From Prorocentrum cordatum (Eukaryota), in contig CAUYUJ010000102.1 of NCBI GenBank assembly GCA_963575745.1, forward strand, positions 1 through 64,000: 64,000 nt of DNA, written 5' to 3'. Below the pieces are notes generated by a model, which made no database searches, was not told the DNA's origin, and saw only the letters and a program-made list of their open reading frames with translations. Below, piece after piece: positions 13,293 to 49,170 of this stretch (positions within the stretch are counted from its first letter, which is position 1; the number at the start of each line of letters is the position of its first letter). The position numbers and the translations under genes were made by a program.

Positions 13293-13656
13293 TCTCCTCT
13301 TTTCTGCCTGCCCGTGTGTACGTGTGGCTCCGCGTCCACGGTGTCAGGGCGTGGGGGCGGGGGGTGCCCCGTCACTGCGCGCCGCTTAGCGGCCAAGCGC
13401 CCAACTGGCGGTCCGCCAAGCCGCCTAGCCACGTGCCAGCACGTCGCCTTTCTTGTGGGGGCCTTTTACCTCACGCGGTCTGTCAGGTGAGATCTTCATC
13501 GTCTGTCCGCCGTCTGTAGCGTCAGTCGCACTGCGCCGGGGGAGGGGGTTTTGTAGCCCGCCCTCGTCTCTTAAGGCTGCACCGCCGCAAATAGTGCTTG
13601 CGAGTTGTCGCACCGCAGTGCGCCTCGCGGACGGACCCTGGTCCGCCTACTTGTCC

Positions 13657-13658
<2 letters not shown>

Positions 13659-13699
<41 letters not shown>
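13659..13699 (+). repeat. (TC)20 spacer between the two retrotransposon copies
   Basis: Pure TC dinucleotide run at the junction. Confidence 0.97.
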
Positions 13700-13700
<1 letters not shown>

Positions 13701-13859
13701 GTCTCGGCTCGAGAGTGCCCTGCACTCAGACCGCAGCCGCGACGCGAAGCGCCCCGCCTCGGAGTCAGTCTCCCAGGCCTCGCGAGACCGGAGGGGTCCC
13801 AGCAGGACCTTACTGATTCGCGTCACCATTCTCCCCCCCCCACCAGAGCGCCCGCCGCA

Positions 13860-16427
13860 ATGGCCCCCGCCAAGCCGGAGCGCCGTCGCTCTTCCAAGCA
13901 GCCGCCGAGCTCACGTCCTGCAGCTGAAGGGTCTCTCCTCCAACGCAAACAGGACTGCATTGCAGCTTTCAAGCAAGCGGGGTCTGACCGCCCCACGGCC
14001 GCATGCAACGGGCTCGCCGAGCTGAACGCGGACGAGCTGCAGGCCACGTACGACATGCACAAGACCAACACCAAGAAGCTCGGCAGTGCCTTGATCCGCA
14101 TGTGTGCCGCCAACCAGATCAGCTACACGCTGGATCACCACCAGCGCAGCAAGCCTAAGCGCATCGGTGGTGACACATCACACCCACCAGCTGCGTCCGC
14201 ACGTCTTCAGGCTGCGGACGCCCAATTCATTGCCTTGGACCCGGCCTTCTGGAAGGTCCCAGTCCTGGCCGAACCCACATCACTTGATGACGGCAAGACG
14301 TGCAAGCCCAGCATCAGCCTCCACGACTACGAGAGCGGTGAACGGCTGCTGCAGCACCACCTCGAGCAGGGTAAGCGTACCACGGGTCAGCTTGCGATTG
14401 CTGTCATGGGCCCAAAAAACGATAACTACGTCGGTACCGAGCTCGCCGTCCCCGTGCTGAAGCGTCACCCCAAGGAGCCCAAAGTGGTCCACTCGCACGT
14501 CCCCGTGACCGTGTACCAGCTGGGCACCAAGGAAGTCGCCTGCACGGAAAAAGTTGCCGTCGCCACCATCGATCCTGCCGACCACGTATGCTGGATTCGG
14601 GTGACCATGCATGAAACCGAAGCCATCGCCGCAGTCCCCTCCATGCATCAGGCCTTCGAGGATCAGTTCTCGGGAGGGTCCCCCGTGAACGGTGGTCCAC
14701 GCGCCAAGGGTCCTTTCCGAAGGGACTCCGCTCCACAGGACAAGGCGCGCCAAAACCAAAAGCACAGGGAGTCCAAGAAAGACGCTCGCCGCAGGAGCTC
14801 GATAGTCAGCTCCAGGACACCTTCAAGGCCCTCTTCCACGGCAACTTTAAAGCCGTCACCATCCTCGAACCCTGCAAAAGCCTAGGCAGGTATGGATCGG
14901 GCGTCGGAAAGAGGTCCCTGGCTGCCACCTTCGGCGTCAGTCTTCAAGCGGTTGACAAGTTCTTGGCGGGTTCAGGGCAACTCGGCGCCACCTACGACCT
15001 CAGCAACGTAGGTGCAGACGAGCCCACTGCAGACAAGTACCAGACCGTGTGGTTCCCTGAGGACCAGCCCATCACGATGGCAGATGCTTTCCAGAAGTCG
15101 GTGGACTTCAAGGCCCTAGGAGTCGTCAGGCACGGCAAGTCAGGCTTATTGGGGATCCGTGTTGCACGAGGGTCAGACGCCGCCAAGGCTGCTGCCGTCA
15201 GCATCCGTGGCTGTGAAGCCACCCTCGCCAAGACGCGATACCGCATTACTGGCAGTGCGGCACGCCACGCCACGCTGACCCAGCTTGCTAAGACTCTCAC
15301 GGGCCCGTCCGTCAAATGGGACTGTGAGGTCTACCACACCGCCTGGGACCCAGCCACTTCGGCTCAGTTTGCCTTAGTGCGCGCTCATCGCCCCCCACCC
15401 ACATATACGGTACAGGTCGCAGGGTGCCCCATCCCGTGGAGCATCACCGAGGCCCCGTTGGCTGAGGTGGTGCCGAAGAGGGACAACATTACCATTGTCA
15501 CCCCTACCACTATCACAGAGCCTGTGACGCCGCCAGCCCGTGGTGGCGGCTTCAGCCCCGCCACGGGCACACTCCTAACCAAAGCGGCCCAAAGCCCTTA
15601 CCTCCACGACCTCATGACTGCCACGCCCAAAGGCAAGGGCGTCGCACCGCTCCCGATCCCCAAGGAGGAGCCTCTAGCCAAGCGCCACCGATCCTCCAGT
15701 GGGAAACGCGACGCCACGCCGCACGCAAGATCACACGGCGCCCCAGGCCGCAGCTCCTCTGCACCCCCGCACGGCACGGATGGAGCTGCCGAGCAGACGG
15801 CCGTCCAAGGACCTGGTGGTCATGACCCGCAACTTGGCACGGTGGCGGCTGAAGGCGGGGGCCACACGGAAGGGGACGTTGCCACAGCCGCCGAGGTACC
15901 AGGCGACGATGACGACGTCGAGATCCTCTCATCAGGGGACGAATTCAGCGTGGCATCTCGCGAACTGAACACCCTCGGCGAACGCTTCGCTACGGCCCCT
16001 AAACTGTCAGATGCCGCCACGACCCGCATCCAACACATGGAACAACAGCACGAGCTGCTTGCCACCACGGTGGATAACATGCAGGTCCAGCTTGCGGGCG
16101 TTCTCTCATCCCAGGCCACACTCACGGAGCACGTTTCAGGTTTGGAACGAGGGCTTGCCACCGTCGTCACCAGCAACAGACGGCAACCACCGAAGCTGCT
16201 GCACTGCGTGGCGACATCCAGGCCCTCCTCGGGCACCTCACGGGGGGCACCATCCACCTGCCACAGGTGGCCACCCTCGAAACCAAAAAGGAGGAAGCTG
16301 CATCAGTTGCCGATCCCGTGGCTGTCTGCGGGTGGATTGATCAGCCAGGCCAGGTCACCCCAGGGACGGGGCCCCAGGGGCTGACAAAGGCAAAGACAAG
16401 GGTCGGGTCACTCAGGAACCCTATTGA
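13860..16427 (+). CDS. ORF1 (~856 aa reconstructed), putative nucleic-acid-binding/chaperone protein with coiled coil; -1 frameshifts at ~14790, ~16170, ~16376
   Basis: ATG at 13860 (MAPAKPERRR). ORF-track pieces 13605-14885, 14963-16384 and 16267-16608 join by single-base corrections. Globular middle (YQTVWFP...LGIRV...YRITG...RAHRPPP) and C-terminal coiled coil. Confidence 0.7.
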
Positions 16428-16604
16428 AGGTGCCTCAGAGAGCCTGCCTCAGCCCTCCGAGGAAGCGCCTTCAGAGGCATCCCTTCTCTCTTCGCGTCGT
16501 ATCTCTTTCTTGTCATATCATGTCAGTTTTGGCAGCAGCACGAGCAAGCTATCTGGTGTAGGGACACCTGTCATCTTGCTGTGGGTGTGTTTGTTGCAAC
16601 GTAC

Positions 16605-19600
16605 ATGAGCATGCAGGGGTATCTAAGGATGCGTGCTGACATGCAGCTTTTGGCTCATCGCTCGCGCCGCCCGCCAGGCCTCGCCATCATGTGGCGCCTT
16701 GCCTGCAGCCTGGCCCTCCCCTCGCTCGCTGGAGCACACCCGTCTTCAGGCGGTGCGCCCCAGCATGGAGGTGAGGTTCTCCTGCGACACGCTGAACGTG
16801 GGACCCTTTTCTTCCTCTACGATGACAGCATCTACAAGTACGATCACTGCACCATTTTGGACCCGATCGTGAACGGCACCGTTGCCGCGGGTCCGTGCGG
16901 CATAGGCCAGGCACACAGTGGCGGCTTCAGCCCCGCTGTTGTGCCCCGCTATCGCCCTACGGGTCTCACCACTCCCCTGTGCGATAGGGGCGAACCCGAG
17001 GAGGACCCTGCTTTCTGGCACCTGATGATGATCCGCGCCCGGCTCATACCGCGTGCTGCGGCGTGGGCACCAGGTGAGGACAACCAGGACATGTTCTGGG
17101 CATGGCTCGAGGACTGCGTCCCGTACATCCTGGCGACGCTTCATCTGCCACAGTACGATCACCTCTTTCAGGAGGAGTCTGAGGACACAACCGACGCCCT
17201 GCGACAGCGCACCGCGGTCGACATGCGCGAGGACATCTGGCACAGAGCGGGCCCCGACAGGCAGCGCATCAACCGCAACCTCACTCGTATCCAGAGCAGC
17301 CGCGAGTACGCCACCCGCTATTTTGGCCTCCTTCTGGAATACCAGGGCGCTCGTGCCACTCTCGTCGGCCCTGAGGCTTTCACGGCACCTTTGCCGCCAT
17401 ACCTCTCACGGGCCCATGCTCTGCTGCCAAGAGGCCTCCCTCCACCCGACCAAGACTCCATGGCGTACCTCGCCGACGTGATCCTGCACCAACCGCCAGA
17501 CATGCTGCCGCTCGTCGAGGCGGAGCTCGCCGCGGCGCCGATGGACGGCACCGATCAGGCCGCAGATGACCCTGTATCATGGCTGCTTCAGCACATCGCG
17601 GCCAGCGACATCGGCAACACATCCATGGACTCGTTCCACGCGTCGGAAGATAGCCAGGACGGCATCGATACCCAGGATCGAGACGGCACGATACCACCAG
17701 GCGACTCGGCCCAGCGTGACCGCGACAGTGAACCCTACTTTGGGCACACCTCGTTGCAAAGCAGTCCGCCCCACACCTCAGCTCAGGCCGACCCCAGCGC
17801 ACGGCCCAACGACGCTGAAGGCGTCACTGCCGCTGACGTGCCAAGCCATCCCACTGCATCGCCAGCTCATGCCAGCCCGTGCAGTGGCGGCTTCAGCCCC
17901 GCTGCACCACTGGCTAGACCTGGACATCCCCAGACCGCAGGTGGCAGCACCACGCCCTTCACCTCCGTGCACCGTGACAGCGTGACTGACTCCAACCCCA
18001 GTGCCATTGACCACGGGCAGGCCGACATCGACAACGATCCCATCGATGATGAGTACCCAGATGCCAGCGGTCCCCACGAGCCCCAGCACAGTGCAGCGGC
18101 ATCACGACACTGTGGCTGCCTCATCTGCCTCTTGGTGGCCACGTACGTCATCGCGATAGCAATGCCGTACAAGGACCAGATCGATGGGTACTTGCCGACA
18201 CCGAGCCGAGACCCCAGCTACCGACAACGACGACGACGCCAAGCGACGGCACCAGGCCCATCGGTGTCCACCACACCCCGACGCAAAACGACATACAATG
18301 TCACGTCCACATTGAGGGCCACTCTCAAATGGACCAGCGTCAAACTCAGAGATAGCGTCTCGGGCGGAGCCACTGCAGTCGGGGTCGGCCTCGGGGGTGT
18401 CCTTAAATGGGCCAGCGGCAAGCTAGGGGCTATTGCCACGGGTGGAGTCGTGTGTGGTCTTCTACTCGTCGGTGCCAAACTTCTTGCCCAGGGAGCTGTC
18501 GGACACGTTGGAGCCCGCATCTGTGCGCGGGCCCTGGACTCATCCACTGCCCAGTGGTGCCTCCGCTGTTGCCAACCGAGCAGGAGGCCGAGGGACGAGG
18601 TCACATACAAAATGCCGTGCACGCTCGCCGACGAACACGACGACCAGCATGTGCACGCACTCCGACATCCGCTGCTACAGGAACACTACGCCGCAGCAGT
18701 TGCCGCCGCAGTCGCCGACGTCACCACCGCCACCACCGCCGCCATCGTCGAAGTCACTGCCGCCGTATCGCGAGCCTCGTCTGTCACACCAAGATCGACC
18801 AGCCCGACTCCACGAGACGGCTCCAAGAGCGGCGCAACATTCGGTAACCTACCGACTAACGAGGATGCCACAGCACACGGCAGCGACACCGAGGCAAGGG
18901 AAACGCGTGAGCGCACCCATGATAGCCCGTGGTCTATCTTCCGACACGCTGACGCTCGCGGTTCCTCCCCCGACGCGGACACCCAACCACCACGACGGCG
19001 AGCACGCTATGCATCCCCCGACAGGCCCCAGGCGCCTTCAGGCCCTGGTATGCCTTACACTGCCCTCAAGCCACCGACACGCAACTTACGCAACACCATC
19101 CAGCGCGACCCAGCGGTCCCCGAGCCGCCGAAGAGCATACTTAACGCCCTGTATCAAAACGGCTTTGCGCTAGGGAACAGTGGCGTGTCTACAGAGGACA
19201 TCAAAGACGCTCTACGACTCCACGACCATCCTCGATTCACTCATGATCCAACACTCCAAGCGCTGGGGCCGTGGACGGACATCATGCAGAGGCCACCGAA
19301 CCGCCTCACTTGGGTGCTGGAAGACTCGGGCGGGAACTCGGGCGAGACAATCTTCCCATACCTCACGTGGGACCTCCGCCAACCCATCACCGACGCGCCC
19401 ACTGTCTTCTGGCATGGGACCCGCGGCGACCTTGCGGCCCGTCTTGCTGCCAGTGGAGGGCACCTCTTGCCAGGCCCCCGCCGTGAAGCGAAGGGCCGAA
19501 CTGGCACCAACGTTGGCCGCACGTACGCGAGCGTGCACCCTTCGCTGGCCGCGTGGTACGCAATGCCGCCCCACCCGCCCTACAGTCTTGAAGACGACAC

Positions 19601-22600
19601 CCTCGCGTGGGGACCCATCGCACTCTGGATGTGCGAGGCCACCCAACCACCGCGCGGGGAAAACAGGCACAACTACGTGAAAGGGGAGGCCCACGGAGCG
19701 CGCCTCATTTACCCTCGGGTCCTGAGCCTCCTCATCCGCATGGACTGGTGCGCCCCCACAGAAGCTGCTTCCAGGTGCCGTGCCCTTCCACACGCCTATG
19801 GCATGGGCGACTGCGCGCACGCCCTCCACATCGCTGGCTACGACCATCCAGATCTCCGTGAGGCGGCTGAAGCTCACGACCAGGAAGCTAGCACCAGGCG
19901 CAGAACAGCCATCGCGGCAGCATGGCCACCGCCGCAGGCGCTATACTCGCCAGAGGCAGCGCGAGCATGGGCCAAACAGCACTACGACACGGAAGCAGCC
20001 ACCAGGGATGACCCTAACCAGCCCCGCCCACGCGTCTCGCTTCACATGCTCCAGCTGGACCCGAAACCACTCATCGACCTGGTGTACACTGGCTTGCAAG
20101 CTGTCCCCGTGCGGGGGCACCCTGACGCACGCGGGTCGCGCCCCAGCGGCTCCAGCCCTGGGGCCGCGTCGGGCCCACCTCGCACGTACAAGTCAGGCAC
20201 AGCCTTAGCGTACAGTCCAGACCGCTCATCGACGTCATCTGGAGTCGACGAACGCCGTACGCCTTCCCTCATCAGCGCGGCCGCCGCCCTCGCCCGAGGC
20301 CGTGCCCGTCCACGACGATCTGCCTCTCGCTCGTCACGACAGAGTGACGGGAACTCCACCTCAGACAACAGCGGCATCGAGACGTGGGAGCACATTGTGA
20401 CGGAGGAGGAGCCGACTGCCTACCACGTCCTCGCCTACCACGTTCGTGATGTGCGGTCCCGTGTCAATGCCCCTGGCATCGAGGTCTGGCTCGACCCTGG
20501 TGATCACCACGATGGTGCCTACTTACCGTGGGGGACGACAGTCATGGGCCACCGCGTTACTGACCCTGCGGTGGACGGGCGTGACGGCTGGGTCATCCTC
20601 CACCACGACCACGGCGACACCACTACTAAGCTCTGGGCACCGACCCAAGTCCACGTCAAAGCGGACGACTCCTGGCGCACCGTCATGGTACCAGCGGACA
20701 TGGGGCCCCAGTGGATCAGGTGCCATGCCGAGGACGCACGCCTTCCCGCCGAGGTTGTCCGCACTACAGGCCAATCCTGGTTTGCTGACGTCTGGCCCTT
20801 GTGGGACCGCCCGAGACCCCATCCAGACGACCCAGGCACAAATGAGCATGCGCTCCCGCCTTTACCAGGACGCTGGTCTTGCCTACAGTGTCGATTCCAA
20901 TGCTGTCAGTACTGCGCGGCTCGCCGCAACACGCAGCTCGGCACCTCGGGCCAACCAACGTGCCCAGACTGCGCCCGCAGCGGACTGCGTACACTCATGG
21001 ACTGGTCCACGGACTACTCGTGCAACAGTTGGACGTGTGCATACAGCACCAACAACAGGGACTCCGACACATGCTGCCTGTCCAGCAGGTGCCCCCACCC
21101 CCCCAGGCCACACAACCTGCTCGACGTCCGTGCCACAGGGATGCCGCCGCACATCCTTGCCCGCCAATTCGGCAACGCGCCAGCCCTTCACGACCTCAAG
21201 GAACCCCCCCGAGCGCCTTCAGGCCCCGGGGGGGAACCTCCACAACCAGGGCAAGCAGGCTACCAGGGTCAATGGTACCTCCCACCGCAGCCGCGGCGCG
21301 TCCCCAGGCAGGGACTGCCTGACGGCACAAGGCGGCCACCTGGATTCACAGGAACGGGGATGCCCGAAGAACCTTCCCCCGACCAACCGCTTTGGAGGGA
21401 AGGCTACGTGCTCTTCAGTCCCCACCAGGCCCTCAAGGAGGAATTCACCTTCAACAAGACGGTCCGCCGACCCTACTCCCTAGCCATTACCAACATGTAC
21501 AGGGATCGTGTCACGGTCAGGACCGTCTGCGAGTCGATCGCCGAGCGCATCCACACTACCCGCACCCGCTGGCGAGATGTGGTACTGTACTGGGACGCCG
21601 AGGGTGGTCCTGGGCCTCAAGCCCTCGACTACGACATGCGACTCTGCGACGCCATGGTGAGCCGTGCCACGACCGAAGCCGAGCTAAACCACGACCGCAG
21701 CAACCGTGGTAGTTTCTGCCTCTATGGACCAGCGCACCAGCGAGCCGTCAACATCACGGCGATCGCAGAGCCGCAGAACATCGACTACATGGAGCATGTG
21801 CGGCGATACTCACCCGTAGGGAGGACCTACCCTGACCACGCCTTCGAGCACGTCTATCGGGGCTGGCAGCGGCCCGACGTGCCCACCATCCTCCCCGACA
21901 CCCGTCCCCTCTCGAGAGCCGACTGGCAGCGTCACCAACAGCACCAGCAGCGCATCCAGCAGCGGGACCAACGTGACGCAGGACAGCACGGCACGCCACG
22001 CTACCGCTCCCCTGCGCGAGTCCCGACAGGCGGCAACACGGCCTACGACGGGGTTGCCGCCTACTACCGTGGCCCCATAGGCGCCAGGCCAGCGGCTGCT
22101 GGAGCAGCCGCCTCCAGCTACGGCCACGCCCCCCACGCCAGGGTACACCCAGCGGTCATCGGCTACCCGCGTGCACCCGTGCAAGCCCTAAGGGCCACCT
22201 CGCCAGTGCCAGGGTCCACGCGCGCCTGGGGCCTTTACTCAGGCCGACATGATGGCTCCTCCAGCAACCAGCCCGCAGTGATAACCCCTGCGGCTTCAGC
22301 CCAGGGGGCTGCAACAAACCGTGGCAGGGCTGGGCGCCCCGAAGGATGGCGTGATGCGAACGTGCGCGCTTGGCAACCTCGCCAGCACACGCCCCCGCCA
22401 AACGCAGCTGCAGCACTGCGCCCTGCCCAGGCAAAACCTGCCCCACCTGAGCGGGAGAGGCAGCCGCTTACCCCGCTCGTCCTCACGCACATCCAGGCGC
22501 ATCACAGCGCCTCCCCGCGGCACAGCGAGGGAAGCGCCCACCACGTCAGCCCCCGCCCCGACGCTGTCGACCCGACCAGGCCACAGCCACGGCGGAGGGC

Positions 22601-25600
22601 GGCACAAGCGCCTCTCGCCAGCCCAGCCCATCACCCTGCGCGGCGCCGATCCGATCCCCGAGCAGGGCGGATTCCGAGCGTGCTAATGCCCAGGCGACCT
22701 CGCCACGCGACCGCCACACGGGCGGGCGCGTCCCGCGCAGCAGGACCTGCAGCCGCCACAGTTCACGCAAGGCCCCAGGGAGCTCCACGAGCTCGCCGCC
22801 TCGCGAGACTCAGGCCGATGGCCGAGCCCCCGAAGTGGTGCCACGCTTCGGAGCCAGCGTCATTGATCCTGGCCAGGTCGACCTCTCGCCGACGCCGTCC
22901 ACGGACCACGAGCCGCCGCTGCCCACCCGCGTGATCGTCCCCATCGACGAGGCGCCAACCTTCGACCCGTTCAAGAACAAGTACCGTGTCAAGAACCTTG
23001 TGGCGGGTTTCGGCGGGGGCTCACCGCTCTCACCTCAGAGTCGGGGCGGAGCCCCCGCCACCTCGGCTGCTGCGGCAGCGGCGGCCCCGCGGGGAATCAG
23101 CCCTGTCCGCAACGTGGGCCTCACGGCAGCGGGCATGGACGAGGCCCAGCGCCAGGCCTCCGACCGTGCTGCTGGAGCTGTTCCACCAGATGCTGCTCAT
23201 CAAGATACTGACGGGGCGGGCGCGCCACCGCAGGAGGGACCAGCGGTGTCGCGTGCGCAGTACATGCGCGTGCGTTGTGCCGCCGCCGCGCCTAGCCGCC
23301 GCCGCTGGTTCGCTTTTGTTTTTGTGCTCGGCAGGACGGATCGAGGAGTCGCCTCCCTCTCCCTCTGCTGCCGTCTCACCTCTCCTCCCCTCGTCCCCTA
23401 CGGTACTGGAGTGAGGAGGAATTTTCGTAACATTTTTACTGACATTTATGAACCCCCCCTGGCGCAGTGCCGACCGTGTCCCGCCTATATTTCTGGCCTG
23501 ACGGCGGCTTCAGCCCCGGTCAAGCTAATCCATAGGAACGCCATGAGCTCCTACTGTGGCCAAGCCTCCTACCTGGGCGAGGGTCAAGCTGACCTTCACC
23601 GCGCGGGGCGTGCAAACCCCAGTTCCACCGATGGAGACGGGCCAGGTCGCTCCATACACCTCGTCAGCCTTAACATCACCAGTCTCTCAGCGAATTGGCC
23701 AACCATCACCGCCCTTGGTGTCGACCACAACGCCGCAGTCATAGCACTGCAGGAGACCCGACATGCCAAGCCGACTAGGCAAGCCATCGCTACCAGCGCC
23801 GCCAATCCACTCCACGGAGGATACCACGCCAGTCTTGGACCTGACCTTGATCTGGCGCGAGCCCAGCGCAGAGCTGCCCACGGCGGCACAGACCACACCG
23901 TTGTGGGCACACTGGCGCCTCGGGAGGGGTCGCCATCCTCTCTAAGGATGCCATTGTCGACTCCACTGTCGACGACAATGCGCCCTGTATCGTCGCCCTC
24001 AAGGCCAAGAAAAGATGGCACGAGGTCTTTCTCCCGCTCTGCACTCAACACCGCCGCAGGCGGCGACGAAACAACCACGGGCCCGCGGGGATCTACATAG
24101 CGAGCCTCTACGGGATTGCTGGAGGAGACAGCACAGCTCTTTTTCGGCTCGCTGACTGCGCCGCCGCTAGGGTCGGCTCAGCCCCCTACTTCATCTGCAT
24201 GGACGCCAATACGAACATCGACGACAATCCACACCTTCTGCACATGTTGCAGCACGGATGGTTCAACGTTGCTGAGGGCACACCAGACCACACCATGCAC
24301 ACATACGGCAATATCCCTGACTGGGACCGCGTCACCAAGTGCCCCCGCACTTCGCGCATCGATTATATCATTGCCAACCAAGCGGCGCGATCCCTTGTCA
24401 CCGACTTCTGCTACCTTCGCGACCTGCCTGCGAAGTCTCACGTTGGCCTGCAGGTCACGCTTGACCTCAGTCGCCTCGACCATACGGCCCGACGTCTTCT
24501 TGCCCCCACGCCCTATCCGCCCGACGATGGAGCTCATGAGGGTCACGAGCTGCAGGCACTAGGGACCCTCATCGCTGAGCGATATCAGGACCGCATGGAG
24601 CAGGCCGACACACGAGACGACGTGGAGCGCATGTTCGCCCTGGCTAACGAGGCCAGTCATGAGTACCATCTCACCCGTCTGCGCGACCTGCCACCTCCAC
24701 CGCCCGACCACCCAAAAAAGAAGCCCCCCACCATGCACGGGCTCACGCCCACGTTCGAAGATCGACCAGTTGTCCCCCGCGCCTTCCCACCTACGGAGCT
24801 TCCACGATACACATGAACCGACTGCGCAAGCTCCATCGGCAACTCTGCGAGCTCCGTTTCATCGGACAGCACCATCATTTGGATTGCCGTGCCATCCCGC
24901 CGTACCTCGCGCAGCGCATCGACTGCACGTGGGCCGCGGCCCGCCTCTTATGCCACAAGCTGCGCCCCACGGTTCTCCTAGACTTCCCCGAGGCCTGGTC
25001 CCCCGACGAGCCAGTGCCGCACGGAGAGCACCTTGACGTTTTGATCCAACACCTCGACTTGGAGCTGGCGCGACGTGCGAACCGTGCCAAAGCTGAACGC
25101 ATCAAGATATGGGCTGAGGGCGTCCGCGAGCCAAGCGGGCGAAAGGCGGCCATATACGCACGGGCTGCTGACAGCTCGCCCACGGCGTATCTCCGCACGC
25201 CTACCACTCCTGACGATACGCAACTCCACTGCGACACCAACGCCTTTAAACCTGACGAAGCTTGCACGGACGACAGCGACGCTGACACCGAAGCTGGCGG
25301 CTTCAGCCCCAGCGACGGTAGTTCGCCCGACACGGACAGCGACGAAGACCACACTCGTGAACCACCACCTGCGCAAGTCCCCGACATCCTCCCTGCCAAC
25401 GCCATTGTTGCTAACACCAAGGACATGCTGAAGCTCATGGTCGACACCTGGGAGCCCATCTTGGGCAGGTACCGTGCACGTGCGGGACATGACGCCGAAG
25501 CCATGCCGACGTGGGCCGACTTCTACGACGAGTACCGACAGGAGCTGCCTACTCCATCACCAGCTACCCCTTTCCACCTCACCGACGACCAACTCATCCA

Positions 25601-28600
25601 CTTCATTCGCACCCGTTCACCGCGCCGCGCGGGGGGACTGGACGGCTGGACTACTAAGGAGGCTAAGGAGTTACCCGACGACATTCTTCGCCTCTTCGCC
25701 AGCGTCCTACGCGCTATGCAACGCACTGGCACCATCCCAGAACCCCTCCTCCACGTGCCAAACCCGTGCCTCCGAAAAGGCCGAGGCGAACTCCCAACGG
25801 ACCAACGACTTCTCTCGGTGCTTTCCGTTTGGATGTATGCGTGGGAAGCGCCAGCTTACCGCAGCCTCACGGACTGGCGGAAAGGATGGACCCACGCCAC
25901 GAGTTTTGGCGCTGTCCCCAAAGCTACCATTGGGGACGTCAGCACTTCTCTCGCCCTTCGCATCGAACACGCCAGAGCCCTTCTCCTTCCCTTGGCTGGA
26001 GCTGCCCTGGACCGTCAGAAGTGTTTCGACTATCTCATCACGGACATATGCCTTAACCTCGCGCTTCACGCGGGGTGTCCCCAAGACATCGTTACTGTCC
26101 GCAGAAACTTCTACAGTCGCCACAAACGCTACATCCGCATGAACGGTGCGTACTCTAAGGAACTGGCCAGGACAAACGGTCACCTCCAGGGAAGCTCTTG
26201 GTCCCTGGACGACATTAAGCTGCTCATGTGTGTATGGACCAAGAGACAGCATCGATACGTTCCGCGATCACTCAGCACTACCTTTGTTGACGACAGCAAC
26301 TCCACTACCCACACCGCACCCGAGTTGCAGAAATCTCTTGATGAAACCGCCAAGTTTGATCGATTTTCTGGTCAACGCATTCATCCTGGAAAAGTGGCGG
26401 GGTGGGCGCTCACTGACGAGCTTCACACCGCCGTTACCCAGCTCACTTTGGCGGAACGGCCCTTACGCGTGGTCGACTCCTTTAAGCTCGTCGGAAGTTA
26501 CATCAACGCCGAGGCAGCGCCGGCTCCAGCCGCGCTTAACCTCACGGCCACCGCTGACGCCCGTGTTCGCAGGGCGACTAGTCGCCTGCCGCGCATTGGC
26601 AAGCTCCCATCACCGATGCTTATTAAGGCGCGGCACGCCCGTTCCCTTGCTGCCAGCGTCTGTACCACGGGCACCGACATTCAAGCCCCATCAGGCCCCG
26701 TCAAAACTGCCTACAACCATGCCCTTAAGGCGGCTATCCGCCCCAAGGGAAACAGGTGGGTCGAGTTTTGGACTCTCATGGCCGTGTGCGTCCCAGGACA
26801 CGCCCTGGAGATTGACGCCATTATGCAGCGTGAAGTCTTCCTGTGTCTGCGGCGACAGGTCAACCGCGACGCTACTCTCTGCGGTCTCGTCAGGGATCTC
26901 CAACACCATGTCCAGACCCTTTTCGGGGGAGGACCTGTTGGACGACTTGTCCAGACGCTTCAGCAGCTCCGTTGGACCTGGCCCACATTTGGCATCATGT
27001 ACGACGACTGGGGCTGTCAGATCAGTTGGCTGAACCTTCCCCAAAACGCCTTCCTTCACATGCTGCGCGCCTCACAACGCAGAGCCTTTCTGAGAAAAAT
27101 CAAGCCACGGCGTCATGACCTTGGACACCTGGCTTCTGTCAGACAGGGCCTCGACCTTTTCGCCAGCACGTGGCTCGCCCGCACGAAAGGAGCAGCCAAA
27201 TGCAACGCATGGCAGCTGGCGCTCCTCCTCAACTACCTGTCGGGCGGGGACCACACCCAACAGCGACGATCTCGATCAAACACGTCCGCTGACCCCAGCC
27301 CCATCTGCCGTTACTGCGACGAGGAAGAGGAAACTCAGGAGCACACTGTTCGCGACTGCAAGTGCTGGGCCCGCGAAAGAGTCCCTCTTACCACCCTCAT
27401 CAGTGACGAGCAGTGGGCCCGTCTTCCACCGCACACAAGACACTGCGGGCTCTTCGATGAAGACCCAGCCCTCCTCGATCTGCAGGCCGACCTCGCGAGG
27501 GACCCGCTACCTCAGCCCATACCGCGGCCCCCACCTGAGGGAGATCCTGCGGCTTCAGCCCAGGACTCCTACACCACCTACCTTGACCATGACACTGGTT
27601 GGACATGGGTCTACGCTGCCACGGACGGTGCATGCACCAACCAAGCCATCCCATTGCTTGCAAGAGCGGGCTACGGCGTCTACTACGGCATCGACCACCG
27701 CATGAACTACAGTGCGCGCGTTCACGGCATCACGCAGAACGCACAGCTTGCGGAGACCCTCGCCATTGTCCACCTCACGGCATGTGCCGAACGGCCCGTA
27801 CACGTCTTCGTGGACAACCAGGCGGTGGTTGACGGTTTCCAAAGGATCATCGACGGACACTCACCACCGCAGGGCACGCACGTGGAGCTCTGGGAAAAGG
27901 TCCACCGATGTGTCATGGCCAAGCCAAACATGTTCCGCGTCGAGAAAGTCGCTAGCCACCAGGGCGACATGGGCATCGACCTCGGGCTCATCGGGCCCAT
28001 CGCGGAGGAGTTCAATCGTCAGGCTGACGCCCTCGCCACAGCGGCGGCACGTACTCATAACCTTCCAGACGACATCGTCGAAGCTGCCAAATCACGACAT
28101 CGCCAAGCGACCGTGCTTCATGGAGTCGCTGTCGCCATCTACGAGCGTAGACATCGTACACTCCCCCTCCCACACCGCAGGGCTGGGTTCACAGCTGCGG
28201 AACTAAACAAAATGGAACCAAATCCCCTGCTGTCTGACCAGGCACCACCCGCGGCTGGACCAGACATCCCACAAAACCCCGACGAGCTCTGGGCCGAGGC
28301 CCAACGGGTGTTATTCGACGAACAGGAGGACGACCCGTTCGGCTTTGGTGGAGGCCTGGACTTCCTGGGCGACGGGCCAGCCAGCGCCAACCCTGCCCCG
28401 TCGGGTACCCGCACGGCGCCCCCGACTCCGCCATTGAGAGCGGCAGCGCACCCACATGACAACGCCGTTCCTTTTCAAGACGCTGACGAGCAGGACGATG
28501 ACCTGTTCAGCTTCGGTGGGGGATCGGACGCTTTGGACGACGGACCAGCCAGCGAAAACCCCGCCCCGTCGGGAAACCTCTCGACCCCTACTGCGACTCC

Positions 28601-29372
28601 GTCCCCAAGAGCGATAACGCCCACATACGATGATATCGGCCACCGCCAAGACGCCGACCATGACCTGGGCGACCCCCGAGGACTGAGTGGCATTGAGGAC
28701 GCACCGCCGATACCACACGCTGCCGACCATGCCGCCCCACCGAGACGCCAACCTTCTACGCGACCGACCTCAGCGGCCTTGCACGGCATCACGACTGGTC
28801 CCACCGCGCAAACCACTCCGCCTCCCCACCGCCGGCAGCCCGCGGGGGCGGCTTCAGCCCCCCCGCAGGGTACTAAACCAGACAGGCCCTCGTGCCCCAT
28901 CCACGCTTCCTTCGTTGCTGAGCGAGAGGAAGCGGCTCCCCTGACCTCTCGGAGCGTGGCCCTAGCGGCTCCAGCCCTGGGGTCGCGCCGGCCCCTCCAG
29001 TCACCCTTCAAGGGTGACGGACGTCAGCGTACAGGGTCCCGCACTACGCTAGTCCACCATTTGGACAGGCGTACCGAGGACCTCGCCTCTGTCTCGAGGC
29101 CCTCGGCTGCTGGCACTGAGCAGCCACCCCTCACCGACCGCGAAACCGAGCTGTCACAGGCTATGGCTGCCCTCCAGCAGAGGTGCTTAGCTCTCGCCGC
29201 GGACCTCGCCGCCGCCCAAGCTCGTCAAGGCCCTCTACTCCAGCGCCTCCACAGCGCTGGGCGAGCCTTTGCCGAGCTGCTCACGGCCTCGCCCGATGGT
29301 GCCGTGCCGTCACTCACCATCCAAGCTATGCTGTCATCGTTCCGCGGCGCTCCACCTGGTGCCCCGCGCTAA
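16605..29372 (+). CDS. ORF2 polyprotein, copy 2 (~4,250 aa reconstructed); -1 frameshifts at ~22572, ~23909, ~24787; RT motif FVDD intact
   Basis: Pieces 16581-22934, 22835-24100, 24199-24816 and 24813-29372 join where copy 1 has one more base. The cargo region reads in frame into APE (TDIYEPPLAQ...IHLVSLNITSL). Confidence 0.8.
19401..19742 (+). other. ART/PARP-like domain in ORF2, copy 2
   Basis: TVFWHGT...GRTYASVHPSLAAWYA...HNYV, with key residues identical to copy 1. Confidence 0.65.
25623..26500 (+). other. Reverse transcriptase domain, non-LTR type (copy 1: ~9550-10425)
   Basis: RAGGLDGW, LRKG..DQRLLSV, LDRQKCFD, GHLQGSSWS, FVDDS (26283-26297), SGQRIHPGK, FKLVG. Confidence 0.95.
27303..27360 (+). 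other. CCHC zinc knuckle downstream of RT (copy 1: 11227-11283)
   Basis: ICRYCDEEEETQEHTVRDC = C-x2-C-x8-H-x4-C. Confidence 0.85.
27609..28050 (+). other. RNase H domain (copy 1: ~11533-11975)
   Basis: ATDGAC, GYGVYYG, QNAQLAETLA, FVDNQAV, KVASH, NRQADALA: D-E-D-H-D catalytic set present. Confidence 0.93.
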
Positions 29373-29740
29373 TCTCCTCCTTTCTGCCTGCCCGTGTGTA
29401 CGCGTGGCTCCGCGTCCACGGTGTCAGGGCGTGGGGGCGGGGGGTGCCCCGTCACTGCGCGCCGCTTAGCGGCCAAGCGCCCAACAGGCGGTCTGCCAAG
29501 CCGCCTAGCCACGTGCCAGCACGTCGCCTTTCTTGTTGGGGCCTTTTTCCTCACGCGGTCTGACAGGTGAGATCATCATCGTCTGTCCGCCGTCTGTAGC
29601 GTCTGTCGCACTGCGCCGGGGGAGGGGGTTTTTGTTGCCCGCCCTCGTATCTAAAGGCTGCACCGCCGCAAATAGTGCATGCGAGTTGTCGCACCGCAGT
29701 GCGCCTCGCGGACGGACCCTGGTCCGCCTACTTGTCCGAT

Positions 29741-30915
<1,175 letters not shown>

Positions 30916-31320
30916 CCCTTTCTCCATGTCTCTGCCGTTTGCTCACGTTCTCGGTTCATGTCGAATGTTTTTTGGCCGCGGCATCACCTAGAGGCGCGCT
31001 TTCATTGGGAAGTCGAACAACTGGCAAGCAGAAAAAGATCAGCCAACACATTCGTTGAATGTTTCGCACGGCAATCTCGGCATTAGAACCAGATATGCGC
31101 CCATTAGTTTGCAAGTTCGAAATTAGAGCGTTCCCAAATTCGAGCACGCGGGCTAGACTTCGACCATCCAAGCGCCATTTATCTTGTTTGCGGACGAGCG
31201 ATAGTTTGAGCAGCGCCGTCGTTAGTTATTCGATTATAAAAATTATGCTAACGGCGTTCCCCACATAAAGAGATTAACGGTTTCGTGGGACCCATTTTCT
31301 TGATGCCCTCCTCGCGACGC

Positions 31321-32692
31321 TGGAGGGGTGGGAGGGGCACGAAACCATGTAAATAGTATGGTATTCCGGTACCATCCTCGCTCAGGCGGGGCCTCCCTGG
31401 AGGGGTGGGAGGGGCACGAAACCATGTAAATAGTATGGTTTGCGGATACCCTCCTCGCTCAGGCGGGGCCTCCCTGGAGGGGTGGGAGGGGCACGAAACC
31501 ATGTAAATAGTATGGTTTCCGATACCCTCCTCGCTCAGGCGGGGCCTCCCTGGAGGGGTGGGAGGGGCACGAAACCATGTAAATAGTATGGTATTCCGAT
31601 ACCCTCCTCGCTCAGGCGGGGCCTCCCTGGAGGGGTGGGAGGGGCACGAAACCATGTAAATAGTATGGTATTCCGATACCCTCCTCGCTCAGGCGGGGCC
31701 TCCCTGGAGGGGTGGGAGGGGCACGAAACCATGTAAATAGTATGGTATTCCGATACCCTCCTCGCTCAGGCGGGGCCTCCCTGGAGGGGTGGGAGGGGCA
31801 CGAAACCATGTAAATAGTATGGTATTCCGATACCCTCCTCGCTCAGGCGGGGCCTCCCTGGAGGGGTGGGAGGGGCACGAAACCATGTAAATAGTATGGT
31901 ATTCCGATACCCTCCTCGCTCAGGCGGGGCCTCCCTGGAGGGGTGGGAGGGGCACGAAACCATGTAAATAGTATGGTATTCCGATACCCTCCTCGCTCAG
32001 GCGGGGCCTCCCTGGAGGGGTGGGAGGGGCACGAAACCATGGAGGCGGGGCCTCCCTGGAGGGGTGGGAGGGGCACGAAACCATGTAAATAGTATGGTAT
32101 TCCGATACCCTCCTCGCTCAGGCGGGGCCTCCCTGGAGGGGTGGGAGGGGCACGAAACCATGTAAATAGTATGGTATTCCGATACCCTCCTCGCTCAGGC
32201 GGGGCCTCCCTGGAGGGGTGGGAGGGGCACGAAACCATGTAAATAGTATGGTATTCCGATACCCTCCTCGCTCAGGCGGGGCCTCCCTGGAGGGGTGGGA
32301 GGGGCACGAAACCATGTAAATAGTATGGGTTTCCGATACCCTCCTCGCTCAGGCGGGGCCTCCCTGGAGGGGTGGGAGGGGCACGAAACCATGTAAATAG
32401 TATGGTTTTCCGATACCCTCCTCGCTCAGGCGGGGCCTCCCTGGAGGGGTGGGAGGGGCACGAAACCATGTAAATAGTATGGTATTCCGATACCCTCCTC
32501 GCTCAGGCGGGGCCTCCCTGGAGGGGTGGGAGGGGCACGAAACCATGTAAATAGTATGGTATTCCGATACCCTCCTCGCTCAGGCGGGGCCTCCCTGGAG
32601 GGGTGGGAGGGGCACGAAACCATGTAAATAGTATGGTATTCCGATACCCTCCTCGCTCAGGCGGGGCCTCCCTGGAGGGGTGGGAGGGGCAC
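31321..32692. repeat. 77-bp tandem satellite, ~17 units plus one deleted unit near 32040
   Basis: Unit ggaggggtgggaggggcacgaaaccatgtaaatagtatggtattccgataccctcctcgctcaggcggggcctccct; ORF-track repeats are offset by 77. Confidence 0.97.
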
Positions 32693-32698
32693 GCACGC

Positions 32699-37156: not shown

Positions 37157-37500
<344 letters not shown>

Positions 37501-38189
37501 CCTCGTCGTCCGTCGCATGCTGCCGCGGCCTCCCTCCTCCTTCCCCCTCCCCCCCCCACCCTCCCTTCCCCGCCCGCACCGCTCTCGTCCTCTTCCGCGG
37601 GCGGCGCGCGGTTCCCGCATTCTCCAGAGCCGGGTGCCGGCCCGCGCCTTGCTATTTTTAACAGCCCCGCCCAGGATTTTCAAGGCCCATAGTTTGTCGT
37701 TTGCCTTTTTGCGTTTTGAGGTTTCAGCCACGAAGTTCTGTCCATTTTCGTCGTTTTCTTCATACATCCTCCCTCCTCTTTCCTCGCATGGTCTTTACGG
37801 TTCGCTGAATGGCTTTCCTGTCTCATGTTGCCTCGTCGCCGTGGCATTGCCAGGCGTCTTGCGCGGCATATTGGATGTTGTGTTTTTGTTGTATGACGAT
37901 ATCCTTGGGGGACGGTCTTGCCTGGCTTCCATCGACTCCCACTGCATTTGTAAAGGTGCATCAATGCACAGATGCACATGGAAAAATAGGCTGGGATTGT
38001 TTGGCGAGCACAGCCCAAGCAGGCCCGAAGTGGCCGAGCAGCCTCGGCTCAAGCACGCGCGCACAGGCCAAGAAAGGCTCCCACGCAAAAGCACGGTCGA
38101 GCAGGCCCGAGCAGATCCGAGCCTTGGACAGACTCGCTCGGGCCCGAGCGGACCCGAAGAGCGCCGACCAGGCTTGGAGCGCTCGTTGG

Positions 38190-38560: not shown

Positions 38561-38693
38561 ACCCTCGCGGGGCCCCCCGTCCAGGTCCAAAGGAGCGGGT
38601 AGGGGGAGGGGTATTTCCCGAAGAGGAAGAAGGGGTTGTGGAAGAGGAAGATCTCGTTAGGCCACTTGTCGCCCAGAGGGTTGGTGGGAATGG

Positions 38694-39960
<1,267 letters not shown>

Positions 39961-48147: not shown

Positions 48148-49170
48148 CAGATCGCAGCCCCCCAGGGATGGCGAGGTCTAATTTGGGTCCGCGCGTGGCG
48201 TCACTGTGCTGGGCCCCCCAGCAGGCCTCGAAAGTGGCGACAGTTTCACAGATCGCAGCCCCCCAGGGATGGCGAGGTCTAATTTGGGTCCGCGCGTGGC
48301 GTCACTGTGCTGGGCCCCCCAGCAGGCCTCGAAAGTGGCGACAGTTTCACAGATCGCAGCCCCCCAGGGATGGCGAGGTCTAATTTGGGTCCGCCCGTGG
48401 CGTCACTGTGCTGGGCCCCCCAGCAGGCCTCGAAAGTGGCGACAGTTTCACAGATCGCAGCCCCCCAGGGATGGCGAGGTCTAACTTGGGTCCGCGCGTG
48501 GCGTCACTGTGCTGGGCCCCCCGGCAGGCCTCGAAAGTGGCGACAGTTTCACAGATCGCAGCCCCCCAGGGATGGCGAGGTCTAATTTGGGTCCGCCGTG
48601 GCGTCACTGTGCTGGGCCCCCCAGCAGGCCTCGAAAGTGGCGACAGTTTCACAGATCGCAGCCCCCCAGGGATGGCGAGGTCTAATTTGGTCCGCCCGTG
48701 GCGTCACTGTGCTGGGCCCCCAGCAGGCCTCGAAAGTGGCGACAGTTTCACAGATCGCAGCCCCCCAGGGATGGCGAGGTCTAATCTGAATCCCCGTAGG
48801 GCGTCACTCCGCTGGGCCCCCCAGCAGGCCTCGAAAGTGGCGACAGTTTCACAGATCGCAGCCCCCCAGGGATGGCGAGGTCTAATTTGGAATCCCCGTG
48901 GCGTCACTGTGCTGGGCCCCCCAGCAGGCCTCGAAAGTGGCGACAGTTTCACAGATCGCAGCCCCCCAGGGATGGCGAGGTCTAATTTGAGTCCGCGGTG
49001 CGTACCCACTGTGCTGGGCCCCCCAGCAGGCCTCGAAAGTGGCGACAGTTTCACAGATCGCAGCCCCCCAGGGATGGCGAGGTCTAATTTGGGTCCGCCC
49101 GTGGCGTCACTGTGCTGGGCCCCCCAGCAAGCCTCGAAAGTGGCGACAGTTTCACAGATCGCAGCCCCCC
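48148..49170. repeat. 101-bp tandem satellite, ~10 units
   Basis: Unit cagatcgcagccccccagggatggcgaggtctaatttgggtccgcgcgtggcgtcactgtgctgggccccccagcaggcctcgaaagtggcgacagtttca. Confidence 0.97.

What the first reader, a model, noticed from the sequence alone, without database searches (positions are those of the whole stretch)
14193..28990. Regularly spaced bulged-C / UYCA-loop hairpins with co-varying stems along the whole retrotransposon
Seen in sequence: copy 2 carries 15 sense-strand hairpins of the form [stem]-C(bulge)-GNC-U(U/C)CA-GNC-[stem']. Loops start at 14206, 15551, 16745, 16926, 17892, 19037, 20151, 21218, 22295, 23509, 25302, 26525, 27554, 28853 and 28970. A UCA-loop variant at 24178 falls in the only large gap. 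Apart from two close pairs, gaps are mostly 0.97-1.35 kb. The lower stems differ in sequence yet pair: gcgtccgca/tgcggacgc, gcccgtggtgg/ccgccacgggc, cccctg/cagggg, ccagg/cctgg, gcggggg/cccccgc, tcctg/cagga, agcgc/gcgct. The upper 3 bp also co-vary (ggc/gcc, gcc/ggc, gtc/ggc). The motif is translated in different frames (GGFSP, AASAP, APSGP, RLQ), lies in both ORFs, and occurs next to the RT and RNase H domains, so it is a nucleic-acid signal rather than a peptide repeat. Copy 1 has the equivalent set (loops at 696, 877, 1843, 2958, 4072, 5138, 6215, 7432, 9227, 10449, 11478, 12776, 12893). Inference: periodic protein-binding sites, analogous to dispersed packaging signals of ssRNA viruses or bulged-C protein-binding hairpins such as the IRE. 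They may nucleate ORF1p/ORF2p RNP assembly, compact or export the 16-kb RNA, or aid RT processivity. I know of no LINE described with this feature.
Basis: partly seen in the sequence, partly recalled or inferred. Interest (0 to 1): 0.93.

Follow-up and report, generated by a model that had tools for sequence, protein, structure and literature searches.

The report
Evenly spaced conserved hairpins in a LINE
A 16-kb retrotransposon carries fifteen copies of one small, selection-maintained stem-loop, all in the same orientation and about 1.1 kb apart inside its protein-coding sequence, which looks like an array of protein-binding sites on its RNA and has no described counterpart in such elements.

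Summary
Copy 2 (window 13701-29739 plus a (CT)n tail) has 15 hairpins of the form lower stem, bulged C, GNC-UYCA-GN'C. Copy 1 has the 13 equivalent ones. A covariance model finds these 28 on the + strand at 24.6-38.4 bits; the next best hit scores 17.8 and the best minus-strand hit 14.8. Dinucleotide and synonymous-codon shuffles give 0.007 and 0.05 full motifs against 13 observed. Eleven of 14 gaps are 950-1350 nt (0 of 200,000 random placements). Stems covary. Between the two copies, which diverged under purifying selection (dN/dS 0.08-0.27), third codon positions inside the hairpins changed 0 of 91 times against a 9.5% background. One orthologous pair runs U-A, U.G, C-G across three copies. 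The motif is read in all three frames. The 24178 'variant' is not a member. Relatives keep the hairpin peptides in ORF1 and at two ORF2 sites, but three RT-region sites are missing in relatives, two as gaps in locus L001. The best reading is a multi-site protein-binding signal on the sense RNA. The binding partner, the acting strand and the function are inferred, not shown. No Rfam family and no paper found matches it.

The parts
13701..29739 (+). Copy 2 of the retrotransposon, about 16.04 kb before its tail. The 5' end starts directly after the (CT)n tail of copy 1.
   Evidence: blastn aligns 1-13699 with 16051-29780 at 94.7%; junction sequence read
1..13699 (+). Copy 1, with its 5' part cut off by the window start. 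It ends in (CT)n at about 13660-13700.
29740..30860 (+). Degenerate (TC)n array that forms or extends the 3' tail of copy 2
   Evidence: TRF: period 2, 592 copies, 77% matches
13860..16384 (+). ORF1, about 850 aa in intact relatives. Copy 2 changes frame near 14791. Holds hairpins 14206 and 15551.
   Evidence: Alignment to P0006/P0007/P0008 of 847-853 aa; a 1-nt 'put in' variant at 14791 in other copies
15224..15478 (+). Possible RRM-like fold in ORF1p (moderate-confidence model)
   Evidence: AF2 domain model, pLDDT 66-81 over residues 81-220. Most of the 50 best VIA-align rows are RRM or quasi-RRM domains, Z 5.4-6.7, below the level of 8 that the tool calls clear. Foldseek best hit E 0.06.
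16428..29372 (+). Giant ORF2 region. An N-terminal part of unknown function is followed by an AP-endonuclease-like part (23851-24813), an RT with an FVDD motif, a zinc knuckle and an RNase H-like part. Copy 2 has frame changes near 22573, 23908 and 24783.
14194..14220 (+). hairpin, loop 14206 (GUC UUCA GGC), ORF1, read as RLQ
   Evidence: 31.5 bits; fold
15539..15565 (+). hairpin, loop 15551, ORF1, read as GGFSP
   Evidence: 38.0 bits
16733..16759 (+). hairpin, loop 16745 (GUC/GGC)
   Evidence: 29.1 bits
16914..16940 (+). hairpin, loop 16926
   Evidence: 35.6 bits
17880..17906 (+). hairpin, loop 17892
   Evidence: 38.4 bits
19025..19051 (+). hairpin, loop 19037 (GCC/GGC)
   Evidence: 31.6 bits
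20139..20165 (+). hairpin, loop 20151 (UCCA)
   Evidence: 33.9 bits
21206..21232 (+). hairpin, loop 21218 (GCC/GGC)
   Evidence: 33.8 bits
22283..22309 (+). hairpin, loop 22295
   Evidence: 35.8 bits
23497..23523 (+). hairpin, loop 23509
   Evidence: 30.3 bits
25290..25316 (+). hairpin, loop 25302; one pair runs U-A / U.G / C-G across three copies
   Evidence: 34.1 bits
26513..26539 (+). hairpin, loop 26525 (UCCA)
   Evidence: 29.3 bits
27542..27568 (+). hairpin, loop 27554, just upstream of the RNase H-like part
   Evidence: 31.6 bits
28841..28867 (+). hairpin, loop 28853
   Evidence: 37.8 bits
28958..28984 (+). hairpin, loop 28970 (UCCA)
   Evidence: 34.0 bits
684..12907 (+). The 13 equivalent hairpins of copy 1: 684-710, 865-891, 1831-1857, 2946-2972, 4060-4086, 5126-5152, 6203-6229, 7420-7446, 9215-9241, 10437-10463, 11466-11492, 12764-12790, 12881-12907
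   Evidence: 24.6-37.8 bits. The weakest, 10437, has GAC in place of GGC.

Best explanation
The hairpins are cis-acting structured signals on the element's sense transcript. Each is a short helix with an invariant bulged C, invariant G-C and C-G pairs flanking a free middle pair, and a UYCA tetraloop. A sequence- and shape-specific protein recognises each one. Fifteen of them, spread evenly at about 1.1-1.2 kb in flexible linker-coding stretches of both ORFs, let many copies of that protein load along the whole 16-kb RNA. The protein is most likely element-encoded, for example ORF1p, which may contain an RRM-like fold and a long C-terminal helix. Loading would nucleate or hold together the ribonucleoprotein that is reverse-transcribed, in the manner of the dispersed packaging signals of ssRNA viruses. 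Shown here: the motif, its single orientation, covariation, regular spacing and purifying selection at the nucleotide level. Inferred: that RNA is the acting molecule, that a protein binds, which protein, and the role in RNP assembly.
For: The motif is far above chance and has one orientation: 28 model hits on + at 24.6 bits or more, best minus hit 14.8. Shuffles give 0.007 (dinucleotide) and 0.05 (synonymous codon) against 13 observed. The pattern of invariant and free positions is what a protein-recognised hairpin would show: bulge C, the outer upper pairs and loop positions 1, 3 and 4 are invariant in 22 of 22 sequences, while the lower stem and the middle upper pair covary. Selection acts on nucleotides. 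The two copies diverged as active lineages (dN/dS 0.27, 0.175 and 0.078; dS about 0.13). Even so, the 21-nt hairpin cores show 3 changes in 273 nt against 13.96 expected (P 5e-4), and 0 of 91 third codon positions changed against a 9.5% background. The flanks differ at 5.6%. One orthologous pair runs U-A (copy 2), U.G (copy 1), C-G (L006). Spacing is regular. All three frames are used. The peptides encoded at the hairpins persist in variable linkers of relatives: 'SARLQxAD' and 'GGG(F/S)SP' in 3 of 3 ORF1 homologues at 84, 69 and 55% identity, where the F/S change equals U/C at loop position 2; 'EPSGPG' at sites 19037 and 21218 in relatives of 62 and 58% identity. A possible RNA-binding fold lies in ORF1p.
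Against: No binding, RNA structure or expression data exist. Sense and antisense folds are equally stable and the G.U excess is weak (7:2), so the minus-strand cDNA could be the acting molecule. The RRM-like assignment rests on a moderate model and Z values below 8. The full-length ORF1 model was poor (mean pLDDT 37.5). Close relatives do without several sites. L001 (56-65% aa identity, 4.4 kb) has no hit above 12.3 bits and has 11-aa and 5-aa gaps at the 25302 and 27554 sites. P0002 has a 6-aa gap at 26525. P0035 has an 11-aa gap at 22295. Individual hairpins are therefore dispensable for this type of element. One 96% copy (L009) has a degraded hairpin.
Confidence: 0.55

Rival explanations
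1. The same hairpins act on the sense RNA but are bound by a host factor rather than an element protein. They might recruit export, elongation/antitermination or anti-silencing machinery repeatedly along an unusually long, GC-rich transcript.
For: Everything that supports a protein-recognised RNA hairpin fits equally. Even spacing suits a factor that must be re-recruited along the transcript. No element protein has a confidently identified sequence-specific RNA-binding domain.
Against: The motif is absent from the other 33 kb of the window and from the relatives L001-L005. A general host signal might be expected more widely. No host genes were available to test.
Confidence: 0.15
2. The hairpins act as single-stranded DNA in the minus-strand cDNA (reading GGC-TGAA-GCC with a 3' bulged G) during target-primed reverse transcription. 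They might serve as pause, RNase H or second-strand initiation points at regular intervals.
For: The antisense strand folds as stably as the sense strand (mean difference 0.08 kcal/mol, 8 of 15 favour sense). The element encodes an RNase H-like part. Regular spacing would suit discontinuous second-strand synthesis.
Against: In the inner 8 pairs of 15 sites, G.U pairs on the sense strand outnumber A.C by 7 to 2; on the cDNA these 7 would be C.A mismatches. The U-A to U.G to C-G path passes through a sense-strand wobble. From general knowledge, no such priming mechanism is known for non-LTR elements.
Confidence: 0.13
3. The hairpins are translational punctuation. Stable stems in linker-coding stretches slow ribosomes so that successive parts of the giant polyprotein fold in turn. 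No specific binding partner is involved.
For: They lie in Pro/Gly/Ser/Ala-rich linker-like peptides and at indel-prone positions of the alignments. They are stable, dG -16 to -30 kcal/mol. The spacing of about 370 codons is domain-sized.
Against: Pausing needs stability only. It does not explain an invariant bulged C, invariant loop positions and invariant closing pairs across 22 sequences, nor the frozen loop nucleotides (0 of 52 changed).
Confidence: 0.08
4. The hairpins are neutral by-products: small palindromic insertions or template-switch products that accumulated in tolerant linkers.
For: Several sites are absent as gaps in relatives, so hairpins were gained or lost as short indels.
Against: There is one orientation only, 28 to 0, regular spacing, nucleotide-level conservation below the synonymous rate, a compensatory change, stems that differ in sequence between sites and none elsewhere in the window.
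Confidence: 0.04

Closest known systems
Dispersed packaging signals of ssRNA viruses (MS2 and other RNA phages, STNV and others), as I recall the literature; no paper on them was read here
   Same: Many short stem-loops share a loop or bulge recognition motif but have differing stems. They are scattered through coding sequence on one strand and are independent of reading frame.
   Different: The host molecule here is a non-LTR retrotransposon with no capsid gene detected. The copies are near-identical in the recognition core rather than degenerate. The spacing is much more regular (CV 0.17). Binding is untested.
MS2 / PP7 / Q-beta coat-protein operator hairpins (recalled)
   Same: Same architecture: a lower stem, one bulged nucleotide on the 5' side, a 2-4 bp upper stem and a small loop with fixed positions.
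   Different: The bulge here is C (possibly A in relatives, inferred from an A-to-E replacement), not the purine of the phage operators. The loop is UYCA. No coat-protein homologue was found.
3'-UTR stem-loops recognised by the RT of 'stringent' LINEs, and the L1/Alu 3' stem-loop (PMC5135761 and PMC10830416, seen only as search listings and abstract starts)
   Same: A cis-acting hairpin on the LINE RNA recognised by the element's own machinery.
   Different: Those are single elements at the 3' end. Here there are 15 copies inside the ORFs and none in the 3' UTR; the last lies about 770 nt before the tail.
Iron-responsive element
   Same: A hairpin with a bulged C on the 5' side below a small upper stem.
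   Different: As I recall it, the IRE has a 5-bp upper stem and a CAGUGN hexaloop. Here the upper stem is 3 bp and the loop is UYCA. No Rfam IRE hit at E<=5.
Palindromic insertion elements inside genes (for example Rickettsia palindromic elements; recalled)
   Same: Short hairpin-forming stretches that sit in frame in tolerant parts of proteins and appear as indels relative to homologues.
   Different: Those share the whole sequence and insert in either orientation in many genes. Here only the 11-nt core is shared, stems differ, there is one orientation, and the motif is confined to one element.

Membership tests
Non-LTR (LINE) retrotransposon with AP endonuclease, RT and RNase H | Reverse transcriptase domain | tested here: inconclusive
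   An FVDD motif is read in the translation. Pfam RVT_1 scores only E 0.15, below its cut-off. The homologue P0003 (E 6e-25) carries precomputed PF00078, PF00075 and PF03372.
Non-LTR (LINE) retrotransposon with AP endonuclease, RT and RNase H | AP-type endonuclease upstream of the RT | tested here: inconclusive
   Exo_endo_phos E 0.0038, 17.5 bits against a cut-off of 24.5. dN/dS in that stretch is 0.117.
Non-LTR (LINE) retrotransposon with AP endonuclease, RT and RNase H | No terminal repeats; 3' end is a simple-repeat tail | tested here: met
   Both copies and an independent contig (L007) end in (CT)n. The self-comparison shows no terminal direct or inverted repeats within the element.
Dispersed packaging-signal array (ssRNA viruses) | Multiple stem-loops with a shared recognition motif along one strand of the genome | tested here: met
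   15 per copy, + strand only
Dispersed packaging-signal array (ssRNA viruses) | Specific binding by the particle-forming protein and a role in assembly | not testable with these tools
Only a tentative RRM-like fold was found in ORF1p.
Iron-responsive element | CAGUGN hexaloop on a 5-bp upper stem above the bulged C (definition recalled) | tested here: not met
   The loop is UYCA and the upper stem is 3 bp in 22 of 22 sequences. No Rfam hit.
Any curated Rfam family | Match to a covariance model | tested here: not met
   The only 3 matches at E<=5 are all on the minus strand and far below gathering scores; none is a match to the hairpin motif.
LINE 3'-UTR RT-recognition stem-loop | Located in the 3' UTR next to the tail | tested here: not met
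   No model hit between the ORF2 stop (29372) and the tail (29740).
Mobile palindromic mini-insertions (RPE/MITE-like) | Copies share the whole sequence, occur in both orientations and occur in unrelated loci | tested here: not met
   Stems differ between sites. Orientation is 28:0. There are 0 strict hits in the other 33 kb. The host genome was not available.

The most novel reading that the evidence does not exclude
This retrotransposon has evolved its own operator-and-coat style system. A high-affinity hairpin is repeated at even intervals so that its RRM-type ORF1 protein (or ORF2p) loads sequence-specifically along its own 16-kb RNA. That would give strict cis-preference and a measured RNP architecture. 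Array size varies between related lineages, and the bulge identity (C versus A) may co-evolve with the protein. If so, it would be the first packaging-signal-like array in a non-LTR element and a natural orthogonal RNA-protein tethering pair.
Probability: 0.35. Interest if true: 0.88.

Novelty: new variant of a known kind. Interest (0 to 1): 0.8.

Why it matters
How long non-LTR elements keep their proteins on their own RNA (cis-preference), and how they reverse-transcribe very long templates, is largely unresolved. The known cis signals are single 3'-end structures. This element offers an array of 15 near-identical hairpins under nucleotide-level selection, evenly spaced through the ORFs. That gives a directly testable handle: one small RNA motif, a short list of candidate binding proteins, and natural relatives with fewer or no sites for comparison. 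The family occurs in many aquatic metagenomes (parts of it in 20 of 24 listed runs from 14 studies), so material and sequence diversity for covariation tests exist. If binding is specific, the pair could also serve as a tethering tool.

Tried and rejected
- **24178 'UCA variant':** rejected as a member.
- **Peptide repeat:** rejected (three frames; protein-preserving shuffles).
- **Internal duplication as the cause of periodicity:** the self-blastn shows no internal DNA repeats inside the element. A protein-level self-comparison was not run.
- **Thermodynamic strand test:** no difference between sense and antisense.
- **Hairpins in relatives' DNA:** none in L001-L005. A shared CGG-CCAA-CCG hairpin in L001 and L003 is a single homologous site, not an array.
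- **Whole genome:** not held, so genome-wide occurrence could not be tested.
- **Viral contig scans:** nothing found.
- **Earlier-findings look-ups:** nothing found.
- **Sequencing runs:** no RNA holder listed.
- **Read laying:** used contigs only and printed 40 of 1,638 variable places, so per-site variation in hairpins could not be tallied. None of the 40 falls in a 21-nt core. Six of 10 'joints' begin at the 3' edge of a hairpin, with short sides of 21-38 nt. I take these as cross-matching of the repeated motif, not as biology.
- **Protein annotation:** Pfam on ORF1 and the N-terminal ORF2 part gave no family. PDB sequence search gave none. The atlas search gave nothing at 0.9 or more.
- **Structure:** the full-length ORF1 model was too poor to search. 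Foldseek on the domain model gave no match at E<=0.001.
Full report
**What is there**

The window starts inside one copy of a long element (copy 1, 1-13699). A second, complete copy follows directly. blastn aligns 1-13699 with 16051-29780 at 94.7% identity. Copy 1 ends in a short (CT)n run at about 13660-13700, and copy 2 begins at 13701. Copy 2 ends at about 29739 in a (TC)n array that runs, degenerate, to 30860.

The element encodes:
- An ORF1 of about 850 aa (13860-16384). Intact homologues are P0006-P0008, 847-853 aa.
- A giant second coding region (16428-29372). It has a weak AP-endonuclease match (Exo_endo_phos E 0.0038), an RT-like part with an FVDD motif (RVT_1 only E 0.15), a zinc knuckle and an RNase H-like part.
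- A distant homologue, P0003, carries precomputed PF03372, PF00078 and PF00075.

I therefore read it as an APE/RT/RNase H non-LTR retrotransposon, with the domain assignments resting mainly on homology.

Copy 2 changes frame several times. At those places (14791, 16169-16170/16371, 22573, 23908, 24783/24785), other copies in public runs carry 1-nt insertions. These are lesions of this copy.

**The observation**

- **Fold:** RNAfold gives the same fold for the 15 canonical sites of copy 2: a lower helix, one unpaired C on the 5' side, three pairs, and a four-base loop. The dG is -16 to -30 kcal/mol.
- **Core count:** the core GNCTYCAGNC occurs 29 times on the + strand and once on the - strand of the whole window.
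- **Strict descriptor:** it finds 13 (+) and 0 (-) in copy 2, 10 and 0 in copy 1, and none in the remaining 33 kb.
- **Shuffles:** 1000 dinucleotide shuffles give a mean of 0.007, both strands together. 1000 shuffles of synonymous codons, which keep the protein and the codon usage, give 0.05.
- **Covariance model:** a model built from 22 hairpin sequences was run without filters. It recovers exactly 28 + strand sites at 24.6-38.4 bits. A clear gap separates them from the next hit (17.8 bits, an unrelated G-run/C-run hairpin at 50176) and from the best minus-strand hit (14.8 bits).
- **24178 'variant':** the model does not recover it and it does not fold canonically. In a third copy two changes break its stem, while the core, which encodes endonuclease residues, is unchanged. 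I drop it. The 1793-nt gap it was meant to fill spans the endonuclease-coding stretch.

**Structure and covariation**

Across the 22 sequences the following are invariant: the bulged C, the first and third upper pairs (G-C and C-G), and loop positions 1, 3 and 4. Loop position 2 is U or C. The middle upper pair is G-C 16, C-G 3, U-G 2, other 1. The five inner lower pairs use up to five pair types each. Overall 84.7% of cells pair against 59.4% in shuffles. The covariation score is 0.576 against 0.135 (0 of 500 shuffles reach it), and versions with the partner slid by one to three columns score 0.04-0.20.

Most of these rows are different sites of one element, so the test shows that each site pairs with its own partner. 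It does not show evolutionary compensation at one site. For that there is one clean case at the 25302 hairpin: copy 2 has U-A, copy 1 has U.G, and a third copy at 88.8% DNA identity (L006) has C-G.

**Spacing**

The gaps are 1345, 1194, 181, 966, 1145, 1114, 1067, 1077, 1214, 1793, 1223, 1029, 1299 and 117 nt. Eleven of the 14 lie in 950-1350 nt, and none of 200,000 random placements of 15 points reached that. After merging the two close pairs, the coefficient of variation is 0.17. The two doublets sit near the start and the end of the second coding region.

**Selection**

The two copies are not simply decaying. Their differences show dN/dS of 0.27 (16428-22931), 0.175 (24663-29369) and 0.078 (RT core), with dS about 0.13. 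Out-of-frame controls give 1.0-1.8. They therefore diverged mostly as active lineages.

Against that background:
- The loops changed at 0 of 52 positions, the bulges at 0 of 13 and the upper stems at 1 of 78.
- The 21-nt cores show 3 changes in 273 nt against 13.96 expected from codon-position rates (Poisson P 5e-4).
- 0 of 91 third codon positions changed, where the background is 9.5%.
- Flanks 40 nt either side differ at 5.6%.

The motif is read in all three frames (GGFSP; A/P-S-A/G; RLQ). Together with the codon-shuffle control, this shows that the constraint is on the nucleic acid.

**Relatives**

Nothing matches in Rfam. The evidence from relatives is mixed.

Where hairpin peptides are kept:
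- All three ORF1 homologues (84, 69 and 55% identity) keep 'SARLQxAD' and 'GGG(F/S)SP' inside otherwise variable linkers. The F/S alternative is what U/C at loop position 2 would encode.
- In the N-terminal part of ORF2, relatives of 62% and 58% identity keep 'EPSGPG' at sites 19037 and 21218. The A-to-E replacement before it would make the bulged base A instead of C.

These are inferences from protein only. The DNA could not be fetched.

Where hairpins are missing:
- A 4.4-kb metagenome contig (L001) covers the RT region at 56-65% identity. It has no hairpin (best model hit 12.3 bits), and it has 11-aa and 5-aa gaps at the 25302 and 27554 sites.
- P0002 (46% identity) has a 6-aa gap at 26525.
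- P0035 has an 11-aa gap at 22295.

The hairpins thus sit in indel-prone linkers, the array differs in size between lineages, and no single site is indispensable to this kind of element. One 96% copy has a degraded hairpin with a GUCA loop and a broken stem, as expected for dead copies.

**How it most likely works**

Three features point to an array of recognition sites for a structure- and sequence-specific binding protein on a single-stranded form of the element:
- invariant single-stranded bases on a frame of covarying helices;
- a single orientation;
- conservation stronger than that of the encoded protein.

The sense transcript is the most economical candidate. It is the long-lived single strand of a LINE. 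In the inner pairs, sense-strand G.U outnumbers A.C by 7 to 2, and the compensatory path passes through a sense-strand wobble. The matter is not settled, because antisense folds are just as stable.

Even spacing along 16 kb suggests that coverage of the whole RNA is what matters. Possibilities are nucleation or anchoring of the RNP along its length, or keeping the proteins on their own RNA.

An element-encoded partner is plausible but unproven. A domain model of ORF1p (pLDDT 66-81 over residues 81-220) has a beta-alpha-beta-beta-alpha-beta stretch whose best structural neighbours are mostly RRM or quasi-RRM domains. Their Z values are only 5.4-6.7. The low-confidence full-length model shows a long C-terminal helix.

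The rivals are a host factor binding the same RNA sites, action in the minus-strand cDNA, translational punctuation, and neutral palindromic insertions. Each is listed separately with what speaks for and against it. Orientation, spacing and nucleotide-level conservation argue clearly against the neutral-insertion rival.

**Comparison and novelty**

In architecture, the hairpin resembles the phage coat-protein operators, and the array resembles the dispersed packaging signals of ssRNA viruses. Both comparisons are from recall. It is not an IRE, not any Rfam family, and not the single 3'-UTR stem-loop known for LINEs.

Five full-text searches found no description of repeated or regularly spaced hairpins in a non-LTR element. 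Of the papers I cite, I saw only search listings and abstract starts. I rate it a new variant of a known kind of signal, found in a class of element where it has not been described.

**Limits**

- No host genome was available.
- There is no RNA evidence.
- Only contigs could be laid, and most variable places were not printed.
- DNA for the informative protein relatives could not be fetched.
- The organism was not determined.

Noticed in passing
window 13640-13720; L007 120-230: Head-to-tail arrangement. The 3' end of one copy, a (CT)n run (about 40 nt in the window, about 90 nt in L007) and the 5' end of the next copy are joined in the same way in the window and in an independent contig. This suggests insertion into (CT)n, possibly the element's own tail, or tandem amplification.
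   Followed up: partly
window 14791, 16169-16170, 16371, 22573, 23908, 24783-24785: Copy 2 changes reading frame at these places. Many contigs of other copies carry 1-nt insertions exactly there, so intact family members probably have an ORF1 of about 850 aa followed by one very long ORF2.
   Followed up: partly
window 18080-18500 (residues about 555-690 of the 16428-22934 translation): Hydrophobic, transmembrane-like stretches lie in the N-terminal part of ORF2 and are conserved at 63% in P0011. No Pfam family matches the roughly 2,400 aa upstream of the endonuclease, which are nevertheless under purifying selection (dN/dS 0.27).
   Followed up: no
window 47450-47530, 50150-50290, 50410-50490: A different kind of hairpin: long G-runs pairing with C-runs around small loops (GGGGC-TTCA-GCCCC, GC-TTCCGAA-GC, CTTTCAAAG), dG down to -79 kcal/mol over 140 nt. 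They lie next to a 101-bp tandem repeat (48148-49170). These are the best non-family hits of the hairpin model (15-18 bits).
   Followed up: partly
window 31320-32693; 40938-41981; 38693-39954; 51818-53613; 63341-64000: Repeat-rich surroundings: a 77-bp satellite (two blocks, 98-99% matches), a 160-bp repeat (6.5 copies), long GTA/AGTAGT microsatellite arrays with GC down to 30%, and a 175-bp repeat at the window end. A second (TC)n block at 37177-37501 resembles the element's tail.
   Followed up: no
P0011 residues about 150-170: This relative's alignment to ORF2 begins just after the 17892 hairpin. Directly upstream it reads 'APGRLQTPGG', which could be the same hairpin read in the third frame (RLQ). 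It could not be checked without its DNA.
   Followed up: no
L006-L010 (contigs of genome handle G001): At least four short contigs binned into a bacterial metagenome-assembled genome are pieces of this eukaryote-type retrotransposon (89-97% identity). They are most likely binning contamination.
   Followed up: partly
window 13701-29730, read-laying table 5: Six of the 10 listed contig 'joints' start at the 3' edge of a hairpin (15562, 16762, 16941/16946, 22313, 25315). I read this as short contig ends cross-matching the repeated motif. Variable sequence just downstream of hairpins is not excluded.
   Followed up: no
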